Assembly: GCF_000150275.1 (NCBI RefSeq)
Contig: NW_002060943.1
Coordinates: 9,171,270 to 9,235,269, forward strand
Source of the DNA: Trichoplax adhaerens
Lineage: Eukaryota; Animalia; Placozoa
Reading direction: 5' to 3'
DNA: 64,000 nucleotides
Shown here: positions 1 to 16,157 of the stretch, one piece after another
Numbering within the stretch: position 1 is the stretch's first letter
How the letters are laid out: each line of letters begins with the position of its first letter
The notes under the pieces: model-generated
The model's database searches: none
Seen by the model: the letters and a program-made list of their open reading frames with translations, nothing else
Told to the model about the DNA's origin: nothing
Translations under genes and position numbers: made by a program

Positions 1-689
1 GAATGGCACATGATTGATTTGACGTTGTGAACATTCATCTCATGGTACAAAGCGTTGGCTGATACAGTACACTAAAATACGACCATGATAAAATGCTCTA
101 CTTTAATGGCGTATTGTTACAATGAAAGGCTTTACCTTTTTAAGATTCAGCAATTGAAATGGTTGGCAGCAATCCAGTTGGACCGAGGTGCGTTTTAGAT
201 AGTCCTGTACTATTTCGAGCGACCTTTTCAACTCGAGCGGTGCTTTCGTCTACTGAATATTGTTGCAAGTTGTAACGTACTGTACAGTTGCAGTGCCTCC
301 ACGAAAGGTCATCGGAAGCGCGACACGCCGAACCAAACGTGCAAACGTGGCAACTTTTACAATATTTATTTTAATATCATTACTATTATTAATTAATTAC
401 TATTATTTTTTATTTCTATTCTACTGTATAGGATATACATATGTATTCTATTTGATTTTATTTCATTTTATTTTTCTATTTTATCAGCTTGACATTGAGC
501 CATCCAATGAAATTGCGTCTTCTTGCTCATTTAGCCAAGCTTTAAATCAGGTGTTCACCATTGTGCATAATTGACTGATAGGAGGTAGTCAAAAATCTCT
601 CTAGTTGAAGCTCAATCATCAAGGTCACGCTTCGTCTTCCAGATAGTGTCCACCAATGTTAGGAACACTGACATTTACAGTATATCGTA

Positions 690-1869
690 CTGTACAGTAC
701 TGCACAGAGCCACCAAGAACTTGCACTGTACACTGTACAATACCACGTGATCTTACCCATTGCAGATACAACCATTTTTGTATCAATTTGTACAAAATTG
801 ATCGCAAATGCATGGTTTTAATACTTTCGGTAAGTTCATGACGATTGGTCAGTACATTGTACTGTACTGCACAGAGCCACCAAGAACTGTGCACTGTACA
901 CTGTACAATACCACGTGATCTTACACATTGCAGATACAACCATTTTTATATCAATTTGTACTGTACAAAATTGATCGCAAATGCATGGTTTTTTACTGTA
1001 CTGTCGGTAAGTTCATGACGATTGGTCAGTACATTGTACTGTACTGCACAGAGCCACCAAGAACTGTGCACTGTACACTGTAAAATACTGTAGAACAATT
1101 TTTGCATCAATTTGTACAAAATTGATCGCAAATGCAACTGTCGGTAAGTTCATGACGATTGGTCAGTACATTGTACTGTACTGCACAGAGCCACCAAGAA
1201 CTGTGCACTGTACACTGTACAATACCACGTGATCTTACACATTGCAGATACAACCATTTTTGTATCAATTTGTACTGTACAAAATTGATCGCAAATGCAT
1301 GGTTTTTTACTGTACTGTCGGTAAGTTCATGACGATTGGTCAGTACATTGTACTGTACTGCACAGAGCCACCAAGAACTTGCACTGTACATTGTACAATA
1401 CCACGTGATCTTACCCTTTGCAGATACAACCATTTTTGTATCAATTTGTACAAAATTGATCGCAAATGCATGGTTTTAATACTGTCGGTAAGTTCATGAC
1501 GATTGGTCAGTACATTGTACTGTCTGTACTGTACTGCACAGAGCCACCAAGAACTTGCACTGTACATTGTACAATACCACGTGATCTTACACATTTGCAG
1601 ATACAACCATTTTTGTATCAATTTGTACAAAATTGATCGCAAATGTATGATTTTAATTAGACCTGACTTTTAATACTGTCGGTAAGTTCATGACGATTGG
1701 TCAGTACGTACATTGTACTGTACTGCACAGAGCCATCAAGAACTGTGCACTGTACACTGTAAAATACCACGTGATCTTACACATTGGAGATAGAACAATT
1801 TTTGCATCAATTTGTACAAATTGATCGCAAATGCATGGTTTTAATAGGTAAGTTCATAACGATTGGTCT
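690..1869. repeat. Tandem array of 7 degenerate copies of a 137-189 bp unit
   Basis: The anchor CACAGAGCCA recurs at 703, 870, 1047, 1184, 1361, 1537 and 1726. Units contain CCACGTGATC (6 of 7), a near-palindrome TCAATTTGTACAAAATTGA, GGTAAGT and ATTGG. The overlapping repetitive ORFs here are artefacts of the repeat. Confidence 0.95.
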
Positions 1870-1931
1870 TTTCAACCGTTTTACTTACAGTATAGAAGTT
1901 TTTACTAGTCAAGTATATCGAAGAAAATAGG

Positions 1932-2431: not shown

Positions 2432-5400
2432 ATGATGGAAGAGCGACGAGATGTAGGGAGTGACGAAAAGGCATATAATACCGAAGAAAAAAATGATGTA
2501 ATACTGTTGCCATTTATCCCCAGAAAAGGAGGTGATAATACTCATATGATAGCAGTCAATATTTTTATCAGAACATAATACCAAAATATTCTTATTTTAA
2601 AATATGTAGTCCTAATCGTAGCATTAATGATCGTAACCAATGAATCGATGAGAACATGCTGATTAGATTCTAATTACATGATTAAGAAATAGTCATAGCT
2701 TTGTTCGACATACCAAGCACTTCTACAATTTCCTCTTAGAAGTTTTTGGACATACCGTTAATTATATCACTAAACTCAAGTAGTTTTTAGGATTTACTAA
2801 ATTCGTATTTTGGATCGATGAAATCTAGATAAATTCATAATACATTTTTAAATTTCCAACAATTTTCACAATACGCACTATATTAATTATTAAAGCATTC
2901 AGGTATCAAATAACATTCAAAGAAATATTCATAATATGCAAAAAGATAACCTTAATATCAAATTAGAAAATATATGAGATAGGCGAGAATTATATCTGAT
3001 ATCAAAGCTTACTGTAGTTTTTATTTATGTAGCTGCTTATAAGACAGAAAATACCAATTCGCTAAAACCTAGTGACGAAGCCATTGATCAGAAAAGTCAG
3101 AAAAAAGGTATCATCTAATGTAAAAATTAATGTTAACTATCTTGCATTAACTTGTAGAATCCGGAGCCAAGATCAATAAGCTCATAAATTGATAACATAA
3201 AACTTTTACTGACACTAGTGTAAACATTATTCAATTTTATCTATAAATACTAATTCCACTGAATTGATTTATAGTAAAGAAAGTGAATATGATACCACCC
3301 CTGGATTTGCTAATAGACTTGGAGCGGAAGATCTTACATAATTTGAAGGATAGAAAGGTTATTATAAGCGAAGAAAGATTCAAAATATTAATTTTACGAT
3401 TAGCGAAATTAAATCTGAAGTTTAACTGTAGCTAGAGAATTATATTCTATATCTTCATATTTCACTATTGGACAGGGTATTATCATGAGCTCAATTCACT
3501 GAAATTGTATTGTAAATTTGTTGTAGAATGATACCTTAATAGACGATTTAGTCAGGTGTTGTGCACTAACAAGGATAATACATGGTGATGACAGCTATGA
3601 GCTTGCAGAGAATTACGTGCGATTAGCCCATGTATATTTGCAACTTAAAGGTACTATAACGAGATCATTTGTAACTATTTTATATGTGATAAGCCCGTAA
3701 AATTTTATTCTCTAGCCTGATCTTTTCTTGTTTTATATCGTTACTCTTCAATTCAAAGTTGACTGATTCGAACTAGCTATTGTATACTTAATCCAGTTTA
3801 AAATTGAGATCTTATTTATCACTCTGCAGCAGCGTCTTTAATTAGCCCAGATTAAACTTTATTAATAGCGGTAAGTATCATGTCTTGCTATTACAATTTA
3901 GTTTGATTTTAATATTAGGACTAGTGCAACAATCTATAATGCACGCGCAACGAGCAAATGATATCATTGTCCGTGGAAAACAACTCGGTTTAAATTTCAA
4001 TGATGATCGTAAATCGGTCCTACCCTTAACAATTGGAATCTACTACGTACTTGGAGTTGCATATTTACGTCGAAATAGATATCTGTGAAAAGGAATGATA
4101 AAAAATTTTAAATTTAAAGTTACTTGTTAATATTTTCAATCGATTAGTAACAAAGTTATATTATATTGCAACATTCCGCCTGTTTCGTACTTTCCTTGAT
4201 TTATTGATAACTATAAGGAAGCTAAGCTTGCTCTATTAAAAGCCGAAAGAGCCAATGGTGAATACAATAAACTAATAGAAGATAACGGCAGCGAATTCTG
4301 TGACGACATGGACATTAAGATCGCTAATACTTTAGGACGGTACGTAATTGTCATTGACTATAAGTACTATTTTAAATTCATTTCTGTTACTTTTTTAAGA
4401 ACGTAGCCAGTAATTTAATTAAAGCTGAAAATCATATTAATACCTACTTCTTTTATAACAGATTATGTGTGGCGCAAGGAAATGTAGGATTGGCTTTGGA
4501 ATGTTATGAAAAGCTAGTCGATATGATCATTAAACTTAAAGGAGACGGCGCTGTCCAGCTTATTCCTATTTACTGGGAGATTGGAAATATATCCTTAAGA
4601 GAAAACAATGTATTTGAACTTGTTCTCAAAAATATATATTGTTAATGAAAAATTTTCTTAACATGCGCCAAGCAGAGAAAATGCTCGCTAAGGGAAGTGG
4701 TAATATGAAAAAAGTGACAGAAGCTTATTTACAAGCTTATAACGTTGCTGTTGCACGGTAGGTTCTAAATTACTCAACTTTCCTTTACTTCTAAGATTTG
4801 ATATTCTTTTTTACAGCATTTACGACTTACGATAATTACTTAGCAATTTGTATATAAATACCTTATAACTGTTTCAAATATTACAATTAGCAGATACATG
4901 TAAAGGCATTTAAAATTAGATAAATAATAATTATCTACGGGAATAAATATTATATGCTACCCCATACTCGTATGATTAAGTATGCGTTCTATAACGACGT
5001 AACCTGAAGACTAGTAGAAATTACTTATTAAGAATTTGAATACATATTTTACAAATATTTCTGTAGTTATCCAGCTAAATCTCCTCAGATCGCCGACGCT
5101 TCTTATCGATTAGGGAAGGCATATCTATTGGAGAAGTCTACTGAATCAGAAAGTAACGTTCTAGAACTTTATTATCAATTATTGTGGATCGCTTTAACAG
5201 CAATTATATAAGTTTAGATTTTAAGACATTAATACAATTCAGCTTTAGCAGATGAATATCTTCAGCGAAGTTATGAAATTTATTCCAAACATGATGGATC
5301 AAGCTCGAACAAGTGCATAAAAATCCAGGTAATATTAGATCGTTGAATCTAATAATCGAATGATCAGCCTCTTTAAATAATTGAGTATTAAGCATGAAAT

Positions 5401-6419
5401 ACAACTACAATTTATTGATAATTAAATTTTCTTCCGTTGTAGGATGATATATGTCAACTCCTAGTGAAAAAGACGAAATACGGGGTAACCTATTATTGAA
5501 ATTACTAATCTATAAAAATCGAAAGCTATCGTACGTACATCAGCTAAGCTATCAACCGATCCTGCTTGTTCCTAGGAAGCGATTGTGAAATTGAGGCCCC
5601 TCGTCGAGACCAAGCGCAAAGCTTTCGGAGAAGATAGCATTGAGGTGAAAAAATAATTAATACTTTGTGATGTTTTTGCCATTTTTAAATATTAATATCA
5701 TATTTCATGAAGCTTACAGTATACCCTAAGTTTCAGCTAATTTTTTACGTATACTGGCAGTAAAACTCTTCACATATTGCAGGTTCAAATTTAGCATGAG
5801 ATAATCAAAAATATTATTTAAACACTTTTTAATATTGGACTTCATTAGGTAGCAAATTCATATAAACTACTTGGAATAGTAAATCTGTCTCAGGGTGAAA
5901 TGTTAAAGGCAATTAAACCACTTACTAAGGTTTTGTTTAAACTTTAAAAATAATATTAAAATCATAAATATTATAGTAAGAGACTTTGGTAGGGATCAAG
6001 ACTACCACTGCATTAAACGGTAACATAAAAGAATTAAAATTTCTTTAGTGTCTATATATATATCGAAATATCCTCGGATCGACTCACAAAAAGACCGAAG
6101 AAGTCGAAAGTATGGTCGAGATGATTGCTAAGTAAGTTTATATTGGAACACTCTGTATTTAGCAGATAATTTTGCACATCCTCAACATGAATATTATGTG
6201 TAGCTTGAATTATATTTGAAAAAATGTACAAATAGGTACAAAACAAATACAGTCTAGTGATTTTAATTATTGTCAAGCGCTCATACATGCGGGAACTGCT
6301 GGATATTTTATTTAAATTTGCCTATGTTTAGATCACCGATCGCACAAGCGAAAGGACTGAAATCAACCAAGAAGGACGTTTTAAAAGATAGACCTAGGTT
6401 TCAAAATATAGTAAAATAA
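2432..6419 (+). CDS. TTC23: Tetratricopeptide repeat protein 23 (TTC23/TTC23L family), about 15 coding exons
   Basis: Spliced exons give ...MIPPLDLLIDLERK...DDLVRCCALTRIIHGDDSYELAENYVRLAHVYLQLKGLVQQSIMHAQRA...YKEAKLALLKAER...ETKRKAFGEDSIEVANSYKLLG...CLYIYRNILGSTHKKT...NIVK*. This is colinear with TTC23 ([59 protein letters not shown]). Probable ATG 2432, stop 6417-6419. Two introns have non-canonical ends. Confidence 0.9.
4079..4210 (+). other. U12-type (minor spliceosome) intron, AT-AA ends
   Basis: Starts ATATCTGTG. Branch point TTTCCTTGAT at 4191-4200. With this donor the frame is restored only if the intron ends ...GATAA at 4210 (AYLRRN-S-YKEA). Confidence 0.7.
4589..4671 (+). other. U12-type intron, AT-AA ends (AT-AG alternative 6 nt further on)
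   Basis: Perfect U12 donor ATATCCTT at 4589 and branch point TTTTCTTAAC at 4653-4662. In-frame junction GGA AAT|GCA GAG AAA with the intron ending ...GCCAA. Confidence 0.75.
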
Positions 6420-7668
6420 GAGATATTCGTTTTATCGAGCATAAATCGAATTGGAAATTTTGCAAACAATCACAAAACGCGTAGATCTCGATTTGCAATC
6501 TTTTGATATGGCCAAATTTTATTGCATTTTTAGCTAATTAAACATCTTGATTAGTTTTATGTAATGCATATATCAGCTACAATTATAAATTTGACAACTA
6601 AGCTTATATTGTAATAAATTCGAATACGCACCTCCTTTCAATTTTAAATAAATAATAATAGTAGATAGTACTGTACATTCAGATCATCAATTCTAAAATA
6701 ACGTATTTATGTTACTTTAGATTGCGTAATAATACATTTGTTAAGATGATTCCAGATCCGAATTCGCATGGAAAAATATAAACGTAGTTGATATCCGATT
6801 ATTAATTATTTTATGGAATTACTAGAACTAACAATAAGTTATTTAATTAGAATAAACTGCTAAAGTAAATAAATTTTATTCGTTGTAAATAGATATACTT
6901 GCTATAGCAATCCGTTATCTGCTTAATAAATGAAATTGAATTACAGCTTGCAATTGCGATACATATCAGTGCTTCAGATAATCGCATTGTATAATATCTA
7001 TTTACAACTAAAACTGTAGACTTTCACCATTAGTGATACATTAATCGAAATAATTCTTAATTAAGGTAATAATTATATGCAAGCTATGATTTAAATGTTG
7101 TTGCCATATAATTATGACGAAGGCGCAATCATGGCTTTCTTAATTAACGATAATAATGGTAATGACAATGAGCGCAAATGATATAGTTTAATAATGTTCG
7201 AGTATAATAACGTATGATAGATAAATTCGGGGATACGGGATGATCATTATTGCGTTAGCTGCATGTTTTACTTTTCAAAGTTTAGTGATACTACTGTGTC
7301 AAGTATTAATACTTAATTATATACATGTCATTGGCACTGCCGCAAAAATCCTGTGAGTATGCAAGATAAATATGTGATACAGTATTCGTATGTACCATAT
7401 TTTAAGATGGCAAGTTTACCGTAATTCACAACTGTGCATATATAGGTGTTAACTCCTACAAAAGTATTTTCTTATACAAAAATTTAAATATAATGTAAAC
7501 CCTTATAATTCTTCTCGCGCAACTGTCACTGCACATAATTGCGGTAATACTGTATGAAATTTTAAATAGAATAACAACGACTTTCACATCATCAAGAACT
7601 CGAAGTACAAGTCAAGAACAGCGATAAATAATCTCAATAGCTATTTGTGGCTAATCACAAATTAAAAA

Positions 7669-11375: not shown

Positions 11376-14262
11376 ATGGCTGCCACGGTCGGTATTAATT
11401 CCAAGCTTACATTATATTTACATAACGAATATGCCCTCTGTAATATAGCTTACACGTATTTTACAGCAGTACTATTCCGGACAGATGTTTCGAAAATACG
11501 CGCACACTTTACCTTTAAATTAGTTATTTAGGCTCATACATGAAATACTAGAATATTTCTTTCTTTCTCTTTCGTACCAGTATGATTATAACAGCTTAGC
11601 ACCATCACTGGTCCATCAGGCTATACAACTTGTTACTTCTCTTGACAGTCCGCCTTATTAAAGTAGACTACTGTACGTTCATAATTTTTATCCAGAGAAA
11701 AAGTGATTGCCTGTTATAGCAGTAATTGTATTAAACTATGCCCATTTGACCGGACTCTTGTTAGGAAAGGATTTCATTTGCACTAATGCCGATGAAAAAA
11801 TCTTCTATATACACGTAAATCCTTGATGATCTTCATTGTATTTAGTTGTAGTCGTCAAAAATGTACATCCTACAGTATACTATTTCCAGAATAATTTTTC
11901 ATTTTTTACCATTGATTACTATCATCTATTTGGTACGATCACGCTAGTTTAAAAATAGTAAATAATCGATTACAGTACTGTGTGTTCGATCCTTGCCAAT
12001 GTAAAAAGTCTGGACATGATAGCTCCATTAAAGCGTTAACTGTTCCATGATGGATCGATCATACGTGTGCAATCTTGATGTATAATCAAATTACTAACTC
12101 AGATCATTTTCTTAATATTTTAGTATTCGCTATGTTATAAGAAGGAAAATGGTATGCTAAGAATATTCCTATTACTAACTTTCGCAAAACTTTACCAAAT
12201 TTACAATAAAACTTTCCTAAAAAGTCTAAAGTAGCTAATAAATGGCATGCTATGATTTAAATATTAGCTCATGAAGATAGCATTTGGACTGTGGCATGGG
12301 CGAGAAACGAAAAAGATCATTATGAGAATGTTGTCACTGGCTCCGTGGACGATAAAGTAAAGTGTTGGCGTTGGTAAGTTTTTCAAATATTGACTATGTA
12401 TACGTTTTTGACACAACCAATGCTGCTAGGCTATTATGGGAAAGATTTTGCTCCTGTGTTGCAATGTTTCAATAAAACTTGATACATTGATGGAAACAGT
12501 TGCTAAACCGTGTTACCTTTTCTAGGCAAGATAATAAACTAGAGCTGCAATGGATCTTTGAAGGCCATCAACTTGGAGTAATTTCCGTGGATATTAACCA
12601 AGAAGGCTCATGTAAATTAGCTTACTACATGACTCCATAAGTTGTGCCTACAAGAATTAGTTGATATTTCTGTAATTAACAATTTGGCTATATACATTTC
12701 GCTTTTATAGTAGCAGCAAGTAGTTCTTTAGATAGCCATATTCGAATTTGGGATCTAGAATTTGGTAAACAAATAAGAAGTATTGATGCTGGTGCAGGTA
12801 TACTTTCAAGAATTAACGCAAATAACTAATGTTGATGTTACTATGAGATTACACTGATATTGGCACTCCGAAACTACTAAATTTGTTAAAAAGCATTAAA
12901 TTATCTCTTAGTCGTGCTTGATTTGTAATTATTTTAGTGAAACAGCAATATTCGCCTTTATTTAATTACCTTAGTTGATACTTGGACATTAGCGTTCTCT
13001 CCGGATTCAAAATTTATTGCAACTGGTAGCCATTCTGGAGCAATTAACTTATATGCCGTGGAGAATGGAAATAAAGATAATACTTTGGAAACTCATGGAA
13101 AATTTACAATGAGCGTAGCTTACGTAAGTGAAATCTCAAGATTTCGAGATTGTAACGGATTCTAATATCACCTGTACCAAGGGACGTTATCTAGATCTAT
13201 ATATGAAATGATAGCAATAATTTATAGAATAGGGTTCTTTAGTTTCATTAAGCCTCAGTATAAAGCCGTTATTGAATTTATTGCTCACTCAAAATACAAC
13301 TATTAATTACTGTATTTAATTGTCACCAGCCTTATCTGTTTATAGAATATTAAACAGGTTCTACTATATTATCAATAAAGTATCCCAAATAACTATTTCA
13401 GAGTCCTGACGGACGCTACCTAGCAAGTGGGGCTATCGATGGTATAGTAAATATTTTCGATCTTCAAACAGGAAAACTTGCACATAAACTTGAAGGTAAC
13501 GATTTCGAAGATTTTACATATCTGTAATATGACCTCATCTTGTACTAGGCTGTTTTCGCCGTTAAGATAGCATTACTAAATGATCATCTTAAGTAACGTT
13601 GTTTTACATTAATTTCTATTTGCTGATTATCTTTAAACAATCTGTAGGTCATGCTATGGCAGTTCGTAGTCTTCAGTTTTCATTTGATTCGCAGTATCTC
13701 GCTACGGCATCAGATGATACTCATATTAAGTTGTATGATATCCATCAGGCTGCCTTAGTAGCTACATTTTCTGGCCATTCATCGTGGGTCCTAAGTATAG
13801 ATTTCAATCCAGATAATAAACAATTTGTTACTAGGTAAATGCGTGAATTTAGCCAAGAATGCTTGCTTCAATTTGTACTGTAATAGGATATAAATTTACA
13901 TTCGCTTGAAAGTAACCGTGCTGTCTTTATTCTGATAAAAATTAAAAAAAAGTTCTAGTGATAAGACTGTTAAAGTCTGGGATCTGGGCAGGCGACAATG
14001 TATCCATACCTTTCATGATCATACCGATCAGGTAAATTACTTGATTATTCAATCTTTTCTGAAATCCTGTGCTGGAAGTATTAATAGATAGACTGTTCAT
14101 TGTTAAAGACATTACTTCTCCTTTACTATCTATAAGGTAACTTACAATAGCATCTTTATCATTCAGGTATGGTCTGCCGCGTACAATGACACTGGTAATA
14201 AGATTGTTTCCGTCTCTGATGACAAAAATATTCATATCTATGAGTGTCCTAGTAATGTATAG
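11376..14262 (+). CDS. WDR61: WD repeat protein 61 (SKI8; SKI and PAF1 complexes), 10 coding exons
   Basis: MAAT|[20 protein letters not shown]...[15 protein letters not shown]...[13 protein letters not shown]...[16 protein letters not shown]...[20 protein letters not shown]...[12 protein letters not shown]...[35 protein letters not shown]. All introns GT-AG. Confidence 0.95.
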
Positions 14263-16157
14263 TAAAATATCTGTTACATTCGCTTACGATTATCACTTTA
14301 ACATATGGTTATTACAAATTATTTGCAAGATATTAAAACTTTTCCCCTTGTACCTAGTTCATATTCTGTTACCGCAGGATTTTGATTGTAAATTATTGAT
14401 AGATGGCAAATTCTATCGTTTTATTTTTGTTAATTGTAATAGGGTAGTTTGAATAAAACCAAGCAGTAACTATAAATTACTAATAATGACCTAGTTATAA
14501 AAATTCTTCTTGATATGGAGTAACGTGATTTTAAGCCAATGCAATGCAAAGTATTAATTGATTAGCTACAGTAAGTATTCCAGAAATAAGAAAGCTGTAA
14601 CCTTGTAATTATACATATGATCAATTCAGGGCTAGCCAGTGCCAACACAGTACATTTTTCTATATTAATACTTACAAGGGCTCTCTGCTCACTATAGTTC
14701 ATCATTTTTATTTCGTTATGAGCAGCATAAACGTGGATTTGAACTCATAACTAAATTCAGAGCTAACCTCAAAGTAAGATGTGTTCATCTGGCATTTTAA
14801 TAATGACATCAAGGATGATTTAATCTCCACTTACTATTTGTCACTCACTTAAAGCAAGTATAAGATATACTCTACTAAATGACTACAATCCACCCGGTCT
14901 ACAGTACAGCAAATTATAAAGATTTTGCACCGAGCATATTTAGTATAGCCTTTGCAGCGGCAGTAAGCTGATTAAGAAGTTAGCAATGCAATTTTATTTC
15001 GCCCAAAAGCCGTTGTACCAACTGCACAATTATAATAGGGCGGTTGCTATGATACCGTTCTCTTCGCATAACGCTTGGAAATTGTGATGGAGGGTTAGAT
15101 GAGTCCGCCACTGCGGACTCATTGCCATTCAGAGAATTACACGAAGGTTTTAGTAGAAAATTGATACTGTACTTTATTGTAGATTAATTATTTTTTATTT
15201 GAGTACAATGTTGTAGTATCTGTAGAGCAGCGTGTAGGCTGTCGCACAGTAACGTAAGAAAATAAGAACACTGCGACTATTGCAATTAGCAAAATCTGAG
15301 GTAGAAATCGGTAGTATTTATAGTATTAGAGATAGCATATAAGCGTACGCAGAGAGCAGCATTGTAGAAGTAGATACAACGTATGCTATAGTAGTTGATA
15401 TAACAGTAAAAACTGTAGAAAATAGCGAAGACTGTAAGTGCTATAAATAACGAAACATGACAAGCTATACTTGAATATGCAGTAGTACTGTACAATAAGA
15501 CCGTAAAGGTATCTACTGCATATTTAAGAACAATATGAAATGCCTATATTTAAAATATGCTAGAGCATAAAAATAAATAAATAAAATAGTATAAGTAACA
15601 ATTTCCTGAATAGTGTAATACATTTACAGTAGCATTGTAATCGTTTTAATAAATCTGAAAGTCTGACTGACTGTTTACCATGTTATGATAACTCAATCGC
15701 CGATACGAATCGATGAATTAAATTCCGATACTTTCATCTAAATTTAAATTATACAGTATTATTAAGCTGTATCAGGGTTCTGTTTGTTAAATGTACATCA
15801 ATTGAGTGTCTACTGAAGGAAAATGACTGTACTAGTGAATGCCAATCCATTCATTATTAATTTTTAGGGATTACCGGTCAATGTAAGCTTTTCAATAAAA
15901 CGATTAATTACGCCACTGATAAATAACTGCCAGTGCTTTTTTATTGCTGTATAATTATCACTTTTAGTTTGACTCTTAACTGAACCGCCCCACACCTAAT
16001 TTTTTTAACCTACACATGACAAGTGAACAGTAAAAAATAATTATACATAAAATATAAAATAAATATTACAGTACTACGCTGTGCGTACGCTTATACAGTT
16101 AACGATAAATAGTAAAATTCGTAGCCATTATTGCCAGTTACAGTACTGCTCTGGCGG

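What the first reader, a model, noticed from the sequence alone, without database searches (positions are those of the whole stretch)
4079..4671. Two U12-type introns in TTC23 that both appear to end in AA (AT-AA)
Seen: intron 4079-4210 starts ATATCTGT and has the U12 branch point TTTCCTTGAT. Intron 4589-4671 starts with the perfect U12 donor ATATCCTT and has branch point TTTTCTTAAC. In the first, an AC sits 1 nt further on but gives a frameshift. Only the AA end gives a gap-free match to vertebrate TTC23 (AYLRRNSYKEA vs ALLSLQKFKEA). In the second, the AA end gives EIGNAEKML vs ELAGVEQAL. Known: U12 introns are mostly GT-AG or AT-AC, AT-AA is rare, and the 3' site is set largely by distance from the branch point (10-11 nt after the branch A here). 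Inference: two such introns in one gene hint that this lineage's minor spliceosome tolerates or has drifted to AT-AA, which GT-AG gene predictors would miss.
Basis: partly seen in the sequence, partly recalled or inferred. Interest (0 to 1): 0.8.

Follow-up and report, generated by a model that had tools for sequence, protein, structure and literature searches.

The report
Two AT-AA minor introns, Trichoplax TTC23
The cilium gene TTC23 of the simple marine animal Trichoplax has two introns that transcripts cut exactly at the unusual ends AT...AA, likely by the rare 'minor' splicing machinery; this is a known but uncommon intron subtype, and the public gene model stops inside the first of them.

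Summary
Observation confirmed. The window is Trichoplax adhaerens TTC23. Spliced contigs from three studies join 4078→4211 and 4588→4672. One run shows the first junction through an inferred 4211A allele. A DNA-like run shows the same AA ends. None of the rival junctions is among the 15 of 16 joints shown. Both introns carry a U12 branch motif 10-11 nt from the end; none of the 11 GT-AG introns does. Intron A lies at the same codon and phase as human TTC23's GT-AG and TTC23L's AT-AC minor introns, and as a U2-type GT-AG intron in an unnamed animal. Intron B is absent from 2 of 2 loci of that kind. The public model reads into intron A and stops at 182 of 471 aa. AT-AA is a known subtype (4.5% of A-type animal minor introns), so tolerance needs no special spliceosome. 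Lineage-wide drift is untested, as no genome was held. The scan noted AT-AA before in Trichoplax XPO7 (two) and VPS52 (unchecked), which makes enrichment plausible. Verdict: new member of a known kind.

The parts
2435..6419 (+). TTC23/TTC23L-family gene, 15 coding exons, 471 aa when spliced as the RNA contigs show
   Evidence: joints and loose end; model; end-to-end alignment with homologues, named TTC23/TTC23-like
3919..4078 (+). exon before intron A; the GT at 4047 inside it is not used in the joints shown
   Evidence: contig pieces 3917-4078 in X4 and X5
4079..4210 (+). intron A, 132 nt, AT-AA, phase 2; donor ATATCTGT departs from the U12 consensus at +6 and +7
   Evidence: joint 4078→4211
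4192..4200 (+). U12-type branch motif of intron A (TTCCTTGAT); likely branch A at 4199, 11 nt from the end
   Evidence: the branch nucleotide is inferred from consensus
4211..4211 (+). first exon base after intron A, polymorphic C/A (Ser/Arg). C makes a competing out-of-frame AC acceptor; A removes it
   Evidence: table 3 (X1) and joint placement in X8
4211..4339 (+). exon after intron A
4462..4588 (+). exon before intron B
4589..4671 (+). intron B, 83 nt, AT-AA, phase 0; donor ATATCCTT
   Evidence: joint 4588→4672 in X4, X5, X8
4654..4662 (+). U12-type branch motif of intron B (TTTCTTAAC); likely branch A at 4661, 10 nt from the end
   Evidence: the branch nucleotide is inferred from consensus
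4672..4757 (+). exon after intron B; the in-frame AG at 4676-4677 is not used in the joints shown

Best explanation
Both introns are cut out of Trichoplax TTC23 transcripts at AT...AA ends, likely by the ordinary minor (U12) spliceosome, and each likely arose from an AT-AC intron by a single C-to-A change at its weakly constrained last base. Shown: the junctions, the motifs and the orthologous position of intron A. Inferred: U11/U12 read the donor and branch motif, the 3' end is set 10-11 nt after the branch A, and a terminal A stands in for C. A-rich, C-poor introns (A 37%, C 14%) make the change easy, and reading-frame selection keeps the exact position. No special spliceosome is needed. Intron A is ancient. 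Intron B is either ancient and lost elsewhere, or gained in placozoans.
For: Junctions in spliced contigs of three studies. U12 branch motif in place in 2 of 2 AT-AA introns and 0 of 11 GT-AG introns. Intron A is in the same column and phase as the minor introns of human TTC23 (GT-AG) and TTC23L (AT-AC) (flanks, alignment). Trichoplax has U11, U12, U4atac and U6atac genes and 121 annotated minor introns (PMC11347168 supplement). The optimum branch-to-3' distance is 11-13 nt (PMC3584512). The last base is tolerant in AT introns (PMC1635337). Single-base switching of non-canonical ends between human and mouse (PMC1557818).
Against: U12 dependence was not tested directly. Donor A departs from consensus at +6 and +7. 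At the animal average, two of two A-type introns ending AA has probability about 0.002. The scan's unchecked notes give a second Trichoplax gene with two (XPO7), which is hard to fit to the average rate. The AT-AC ancestry is not shown: no placozoan relative with AC at these sites was seen.
Confidence: 0.8

Rival explanations
1. The placozoan minor spliceosome itself has shifted, for example through the CC-variant U6atac or changes in 3'-site factors. AT-AA is then a favoured, common end in this lineage, hidden because gene models break at such introns. This adds to the U12 reading and does not replace it.
For: 2 of 2 here. Unchecked scan notes list 3 more AT-AA against 4 AT-AC introns in other Trichoplax genes; with this gene that is 5 of 9 against an expected 4.5%. 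In C-allele animals AA at +11 is the assembled form although AC is at +12. Trichoplax U6atac has a variant 5'-site-pairing motif (PMC2396436 section 16).
Against: The tally comes from findings picked for being odd, so it is biased and unverified. The U6atac variant concerns the 5' site and is shared with cnidarians, a sponge, amoebae, moss and oomycetes. The AC product would be frameshifted and likely destroyed by decay, so its absence shows no preference. Mutation bias alone could raise the share without any change in the machine. No third AT-AA intron was found in the window.
Confidence: 0.2
2. One or both introns are spliced by the major (U2) spliceosome despite A-type ends, like U2-type AT-AC introns.
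For: Donor A is off consensus. The same position is U2-type in L002 and L006. One run shows an A-starting, U2-like donor elsewhere in this gene (3364).
Against: Neither donor resembles a U1 site. Both keep a U12 branch motif at U12 distance, and neither has an AG or pyrimidine tract at the used end.
Confidence: 0.06
3. The AA ends are assembly errors, or the true ends are the nearby AC or AG sites.
For: An in-frame AG4677 scores only 4 bits lower than AA against a homologue profile. Contigs drop rare variants.
Against: Spliced contigs of three studies join at AA, and an independent unspliced run has the same AA ends. AC4211 truncates the protein and does not exist in the 4211A allele.
Confidence: 0.02

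Closest known systems
AT-AA (A-type, AT-AN) U12 introns of animals, e.g. human RASGRP4, MSH3, PIGB, PROX2 (PMC8280824 dataset rows; PMC1557818 tables)
   Same: AT start, U12 branch motif about 8-11 nt from the end, AA end
   Different: Two separate AT-AA introns in one gene. The 10 human rows fall in 9 genes, and the one repeat (ABHD18) shares a single donor. Donor A is looser than the human ones.
Human TTC23L AT-AC minor intron (chr5:34863055-34864436) and human/mouse TTC23 minor intron (GT-AG in human, chr15:99218714-99218897)
   Same: Same codon and phase 2 as intron A; U12 branch motif 9-10 nt from the end
   Different: Ends are AT-AC and GT-AG, not AT-AA. Each human gene is listed with one minor intron only, so there is no minor counterpart of intron B.
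Trichoplax XPO7 (two AT-AA) and VPS52 (one AT-AA) from earlier notes of this scan (unchecked)
   Same: Same organism, same subtype, same failure of public gene models
   Different: Other genes; not verified here

Membership tests
U12-type (minor) intron | 5' splice site RTATCCTT | tested here: met
   Intron B matches +1 to +8. Intron A matches +1 to +5 and +8, with T and G at +6 and +7, so it is only partly met there.
U12-type (minor) intron | TTCCTTRAY-like branch motif about 10-13 nt from the 3' end, no pyrimidine tract | tested here: met
   11 and 10 nt; 0 of 11 GT-AG introns of the gene have it
U12-type (minor) intron | Excised precisely in mRNA | tested here: met
   joints in X4, X5, X8
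U12-type (minor) intron | Position conserved with known minor introns | tested here: inconclusive
   Met for intron A. Not met for intron B in the 2 genomic loci that reach it or in the human lists.
U12-type (minor) intron | Host has U11, U12, U4atac, U6atac | not testable with these tools
   No genome held. Published coordinates exist for T. adhaerens (PMC11347168 Table S7 rows).
U12-type (minor) intron | Splicing depends on U11/U12/U6atac | not testable with these tools
   needs knock-down
U2-type intron with A-type ends | U1-type donor and pyrimidine tract, no U12 branch motif | tested here: not met
TTC23/TTC23L family | End-to-end similarity to TTC23 proteins | tested here: met
   365 bits against a profile of 28 homologues; names. 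No tree was built, so orthology to TTC23 or TTC23L singly was not tested.

The most novel reading that the evidence does not exclude
Placozoans have drifted to AT-AA as a common end of their A-type minor introns (a quarter or more, against about 4.5% in animals overall). Published surveys miss this because gene models break at these introns. Intron B may in addition be one of the very few newly gained U12 introns in animals.
Probability: 0.35. Interest if true: 0.55.

Novelty: new member of a known kind. Interest (0 to 1): 0.35.

Why it matters
It corrects a gene model: the public protein is 182 aa, the spliced one 471 aa. TTC23 is a ciliary EvC-zone protein in mammals (bioRxiv 10.1101/156059 passages), so Trichoplax has a full-length homologue that catalogues miss. 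One ancient intron position shows four states (U12 AT-AA, U12 AT-AC, U12 GT-AG, U2 GT-AG), a compact example of the known conversion path. The C/A polymorphism at 4211 is a natural test of whether distance or the terminal base picks the U12 3' end. If AT-AA proves common in placozoans, annotation-based counts of minor introns and their subtypes in early-branching animals are biased.

Tried and rejected
No whole genome is held, so the genome-wide count of 3' ends and the look at snRNAs and ZRSR2 could not be done. A scan of both strands of the window for donor, branch motif and open flanks gave 4 donor sites: the two here and two more. The minus-strand candidate 14868-14797 got no joint in 4 of 4 runs, and one contig of X9 runs unspliced through it; the neighbouring plus-strand gene shows 4 of 4 GT-AG joints. 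It is not supported, though coverage was thin. The minus-strand candidate at 37467 lies inside an open frame that runs on to a GT 19 nt further; I rejected it by eye and did not lay RNA on it. A homologue search with one downstream exon found nothing (length-limited). An alignment search gave 26 proteins, 23 of them TTC23-like and no further placozoan model, so how other Trichoplax models treat the junctions is open. Cluster members of P0001 could not be looked up. The metagenome scan gave 9 loci: 2 reach both positions (L002, L006, near-identical exons, so not independent), 1 is intron-free (L001), and 6 did not yield the downstream exons. Viral contigs gave none. Pfam gave only weak TPR hits below cut-off. 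PMC7367187 and PMC2846911 passages say nothing on Trichoplax. Second-intron read-through signatures in other animals' protein models were not seen. In PMC11347168 Table S8 the Trichoplax row has no 'minor' cell near the TTC23 and TTC23L columns by my count by eye; I could not count columns exactly. File 13 of the PMC8280824 supplements was not searched, and the per-intron databases behind PMC10639083 and PMC11347168 were not available; they may list these introns.

Full report
Organism and gene. An exon translated from 3527-3652 is 100% identical to TRIADDRAFT_52345 of Trichoplax adhaerens. A profile search with the same exon gave 46 proteins. An alignment of some of these retrieved proteins named TTC23 or TTC23-like from lamprey, hemichordate, sea urchin and vertebrates. 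Joining the exons as the RNA shows gives 471 aa, from 2435 to a stop at 6419, which aligns end to end with the family. No tree was built, so I call it a TTC23/TTC23L-family gene. No whole genome is held for the window.

The observation. I laid 4 of 20 listed runs on 2900-6700 (all are contigs, not raw reads). X4 (RNA on record), X5 and X8 (RNA by guess, but spliced), from three studies, all join 4588 to 4672, skipping 83 nt AT..AA with no ambiguous letter. X4 and X5 join 4078 to 4211, skipping 132 nt AT..AA. X8 skips the same 132 nt but is placed one base along with 3 ambiguous letters. The unspliced run X1 has A for C at 4211, and with that allele 4 letters fit either side, which matches X8. 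That X8 carries the allele is inferred. X1 differs from the window at no donor, branch or terminal base, so the AA ends are in at least two haplotypes. Of the 15 joints shown (16 found), 11 are GT..AG, 3 are these AT-AA joints and 1 is an alternative AT..AG seen in X4 alone. None is GT4047-AG4217, AC4211 or AG4677, the outcomes named as refuting. Against a profile of 28 homologues the AA/AA protein scores 365.3 bits, AG4677 361.0, GT4047-AG4217 330.6 and AC4211 112.1. Homology thus settles intron A but hardly intron B. Contigs drop rare forms, so minor use of other ends is open.

Class. Both introns have a U12 branch motif 11 and 10 nt from the end, and 0 of the 11 other introns tested do. The published optimum is 11-13 nt, and the donor and branch motif define the class (PMC3584512 passages). 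Donor B matches the consensus to +8; donor A departs at +6 and +7. T. adhaerens has all four minor snRNAs and 121 annotated minor introns (PMC11347168 supplement rows). Its U6atac carries a CC variant in the motif thought to pair with the donor (PMC2396436 section 16). This might relax +6 and +7, but that is inference, and it concerns the 5' end, not the AA. U12 dependence is inferred, not tested.

History. Human TTC23 has one listed minor intron (GT-AG) and TTC23L one (AT-AC) (PMC8280824 supplement rows). Their printed exon flanks translate to the column and phase (2) of intron A. Two genomic loci of an unnamed animal, L002 and L006, have a U2-type GT-AG intron at that codon, and a mis-predicted homologue, P0039, ends there in residues that spell a U12 donor. 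So one ancient position shows four states. Intron B is different: L002 and L006 are uninterrupted there, and no second minor intron is listed for the human genes. Whether human has a U2 intron there I could not see. Ancient-and-lost and placozoan gain both remain; a 2012 review knew one gained U12 intron.

How unusual. AT-AA is 823 of 18,226 A-type conserved minor introns in animals (4.5%; 1.1% of all) and 690 of about 6,670 in plants (PMC10639083 Table S1). The human list has 10 AT-AA rows in 9 genes (total rows of the sheet not seen). The last base is known to be tolerant in AT introns (PMC1635337 passage), and 14 of 24 non-canonical U12 introns differ between human and mouse, always by one base (PMC1557818). 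Tolerance is therefore general, and a C-to-A change in introns that are 37% A and 14% C is the simplest origin. That these two came from AT-AC is inferred. Two of two has probability about 0.002 at the animal average, but this gene was picked for being odd.

Lineage drift. I could not count genome-wide. A window scan gave two further candidates: one got no joint in 4 runs, and one looks exonic. Earlier notes of this scan, unchecked and equally selected, list AT-AA in Trichoplax XPO7 (two) and VPS52, and AT-AC in SERCA, Rab5, KIF28 and RAPGEF1. With this gene that is 5 of 9. It is a lead that raises my odds of enrichment to about a third, not evidence. Even if real, mutation bias could explain it without a changed spliceosome.

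Annotation. Paper searches for these introns (U12-type intron + AT-AA + minor spliceosome; TTC23 + minor intron; Trichoplax + U12 terms; Trichoplax / non-canonical splice / AT-AA) listed no paper describing them. I saw only listings for most hits, and passages or supplement rows for the ten papers cited; none was read whole. The per-intron databases were out of reach.

Verdict. The feature is real and well supported, a new member of a known rare subtype. It is useful as an annotation fix and as a pointer to a cheap genome-wide test. Interest 0.35.

Noticed in passing
window 3364-3526: Run X4 alone joins 3363 to 3527 (AT..AG, donor ATAAGC, U2-like, no U12 branch motif), 6 nt past the GT donor used by X5 and X8 and in frame. 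It is either an A-starting U2-type alternative donor or a strain allele with G at 3364.
   Followed up: partly
window 4211: C/A polymorphism at the first exon base after intron A (Ser/Arg). The A allele removes the competing AC and makes the exon start with the same four letters as the intron.
   Followed up: partly
P0048, P0049, P0050 at the intron A column: Hemichordate and sea-urchin-like homologues have K-Y-P right at the junction, so the exon after the intron can itself begin like a U12 donor; possibly a trace of how the intron arose.
   Followed up: no
window 660-1870: Head-to-tail repeat of about 170-190 nt, roughly seven copies by eye, upstream of the TTC23 gene.
   Followed up: no
window 13000-14445: Plus-strand spliced gene with 4 of 4 GT-AG joints in 3-4 runs; not identified.
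   Followed up: no
L006:10188-14845: By eye, several other intron positions are shared with the Trichoplax gene (those after 3650, 4757, 5328, 5929, 6131), while Trichoplax has extra ones.
   Followed up: partly
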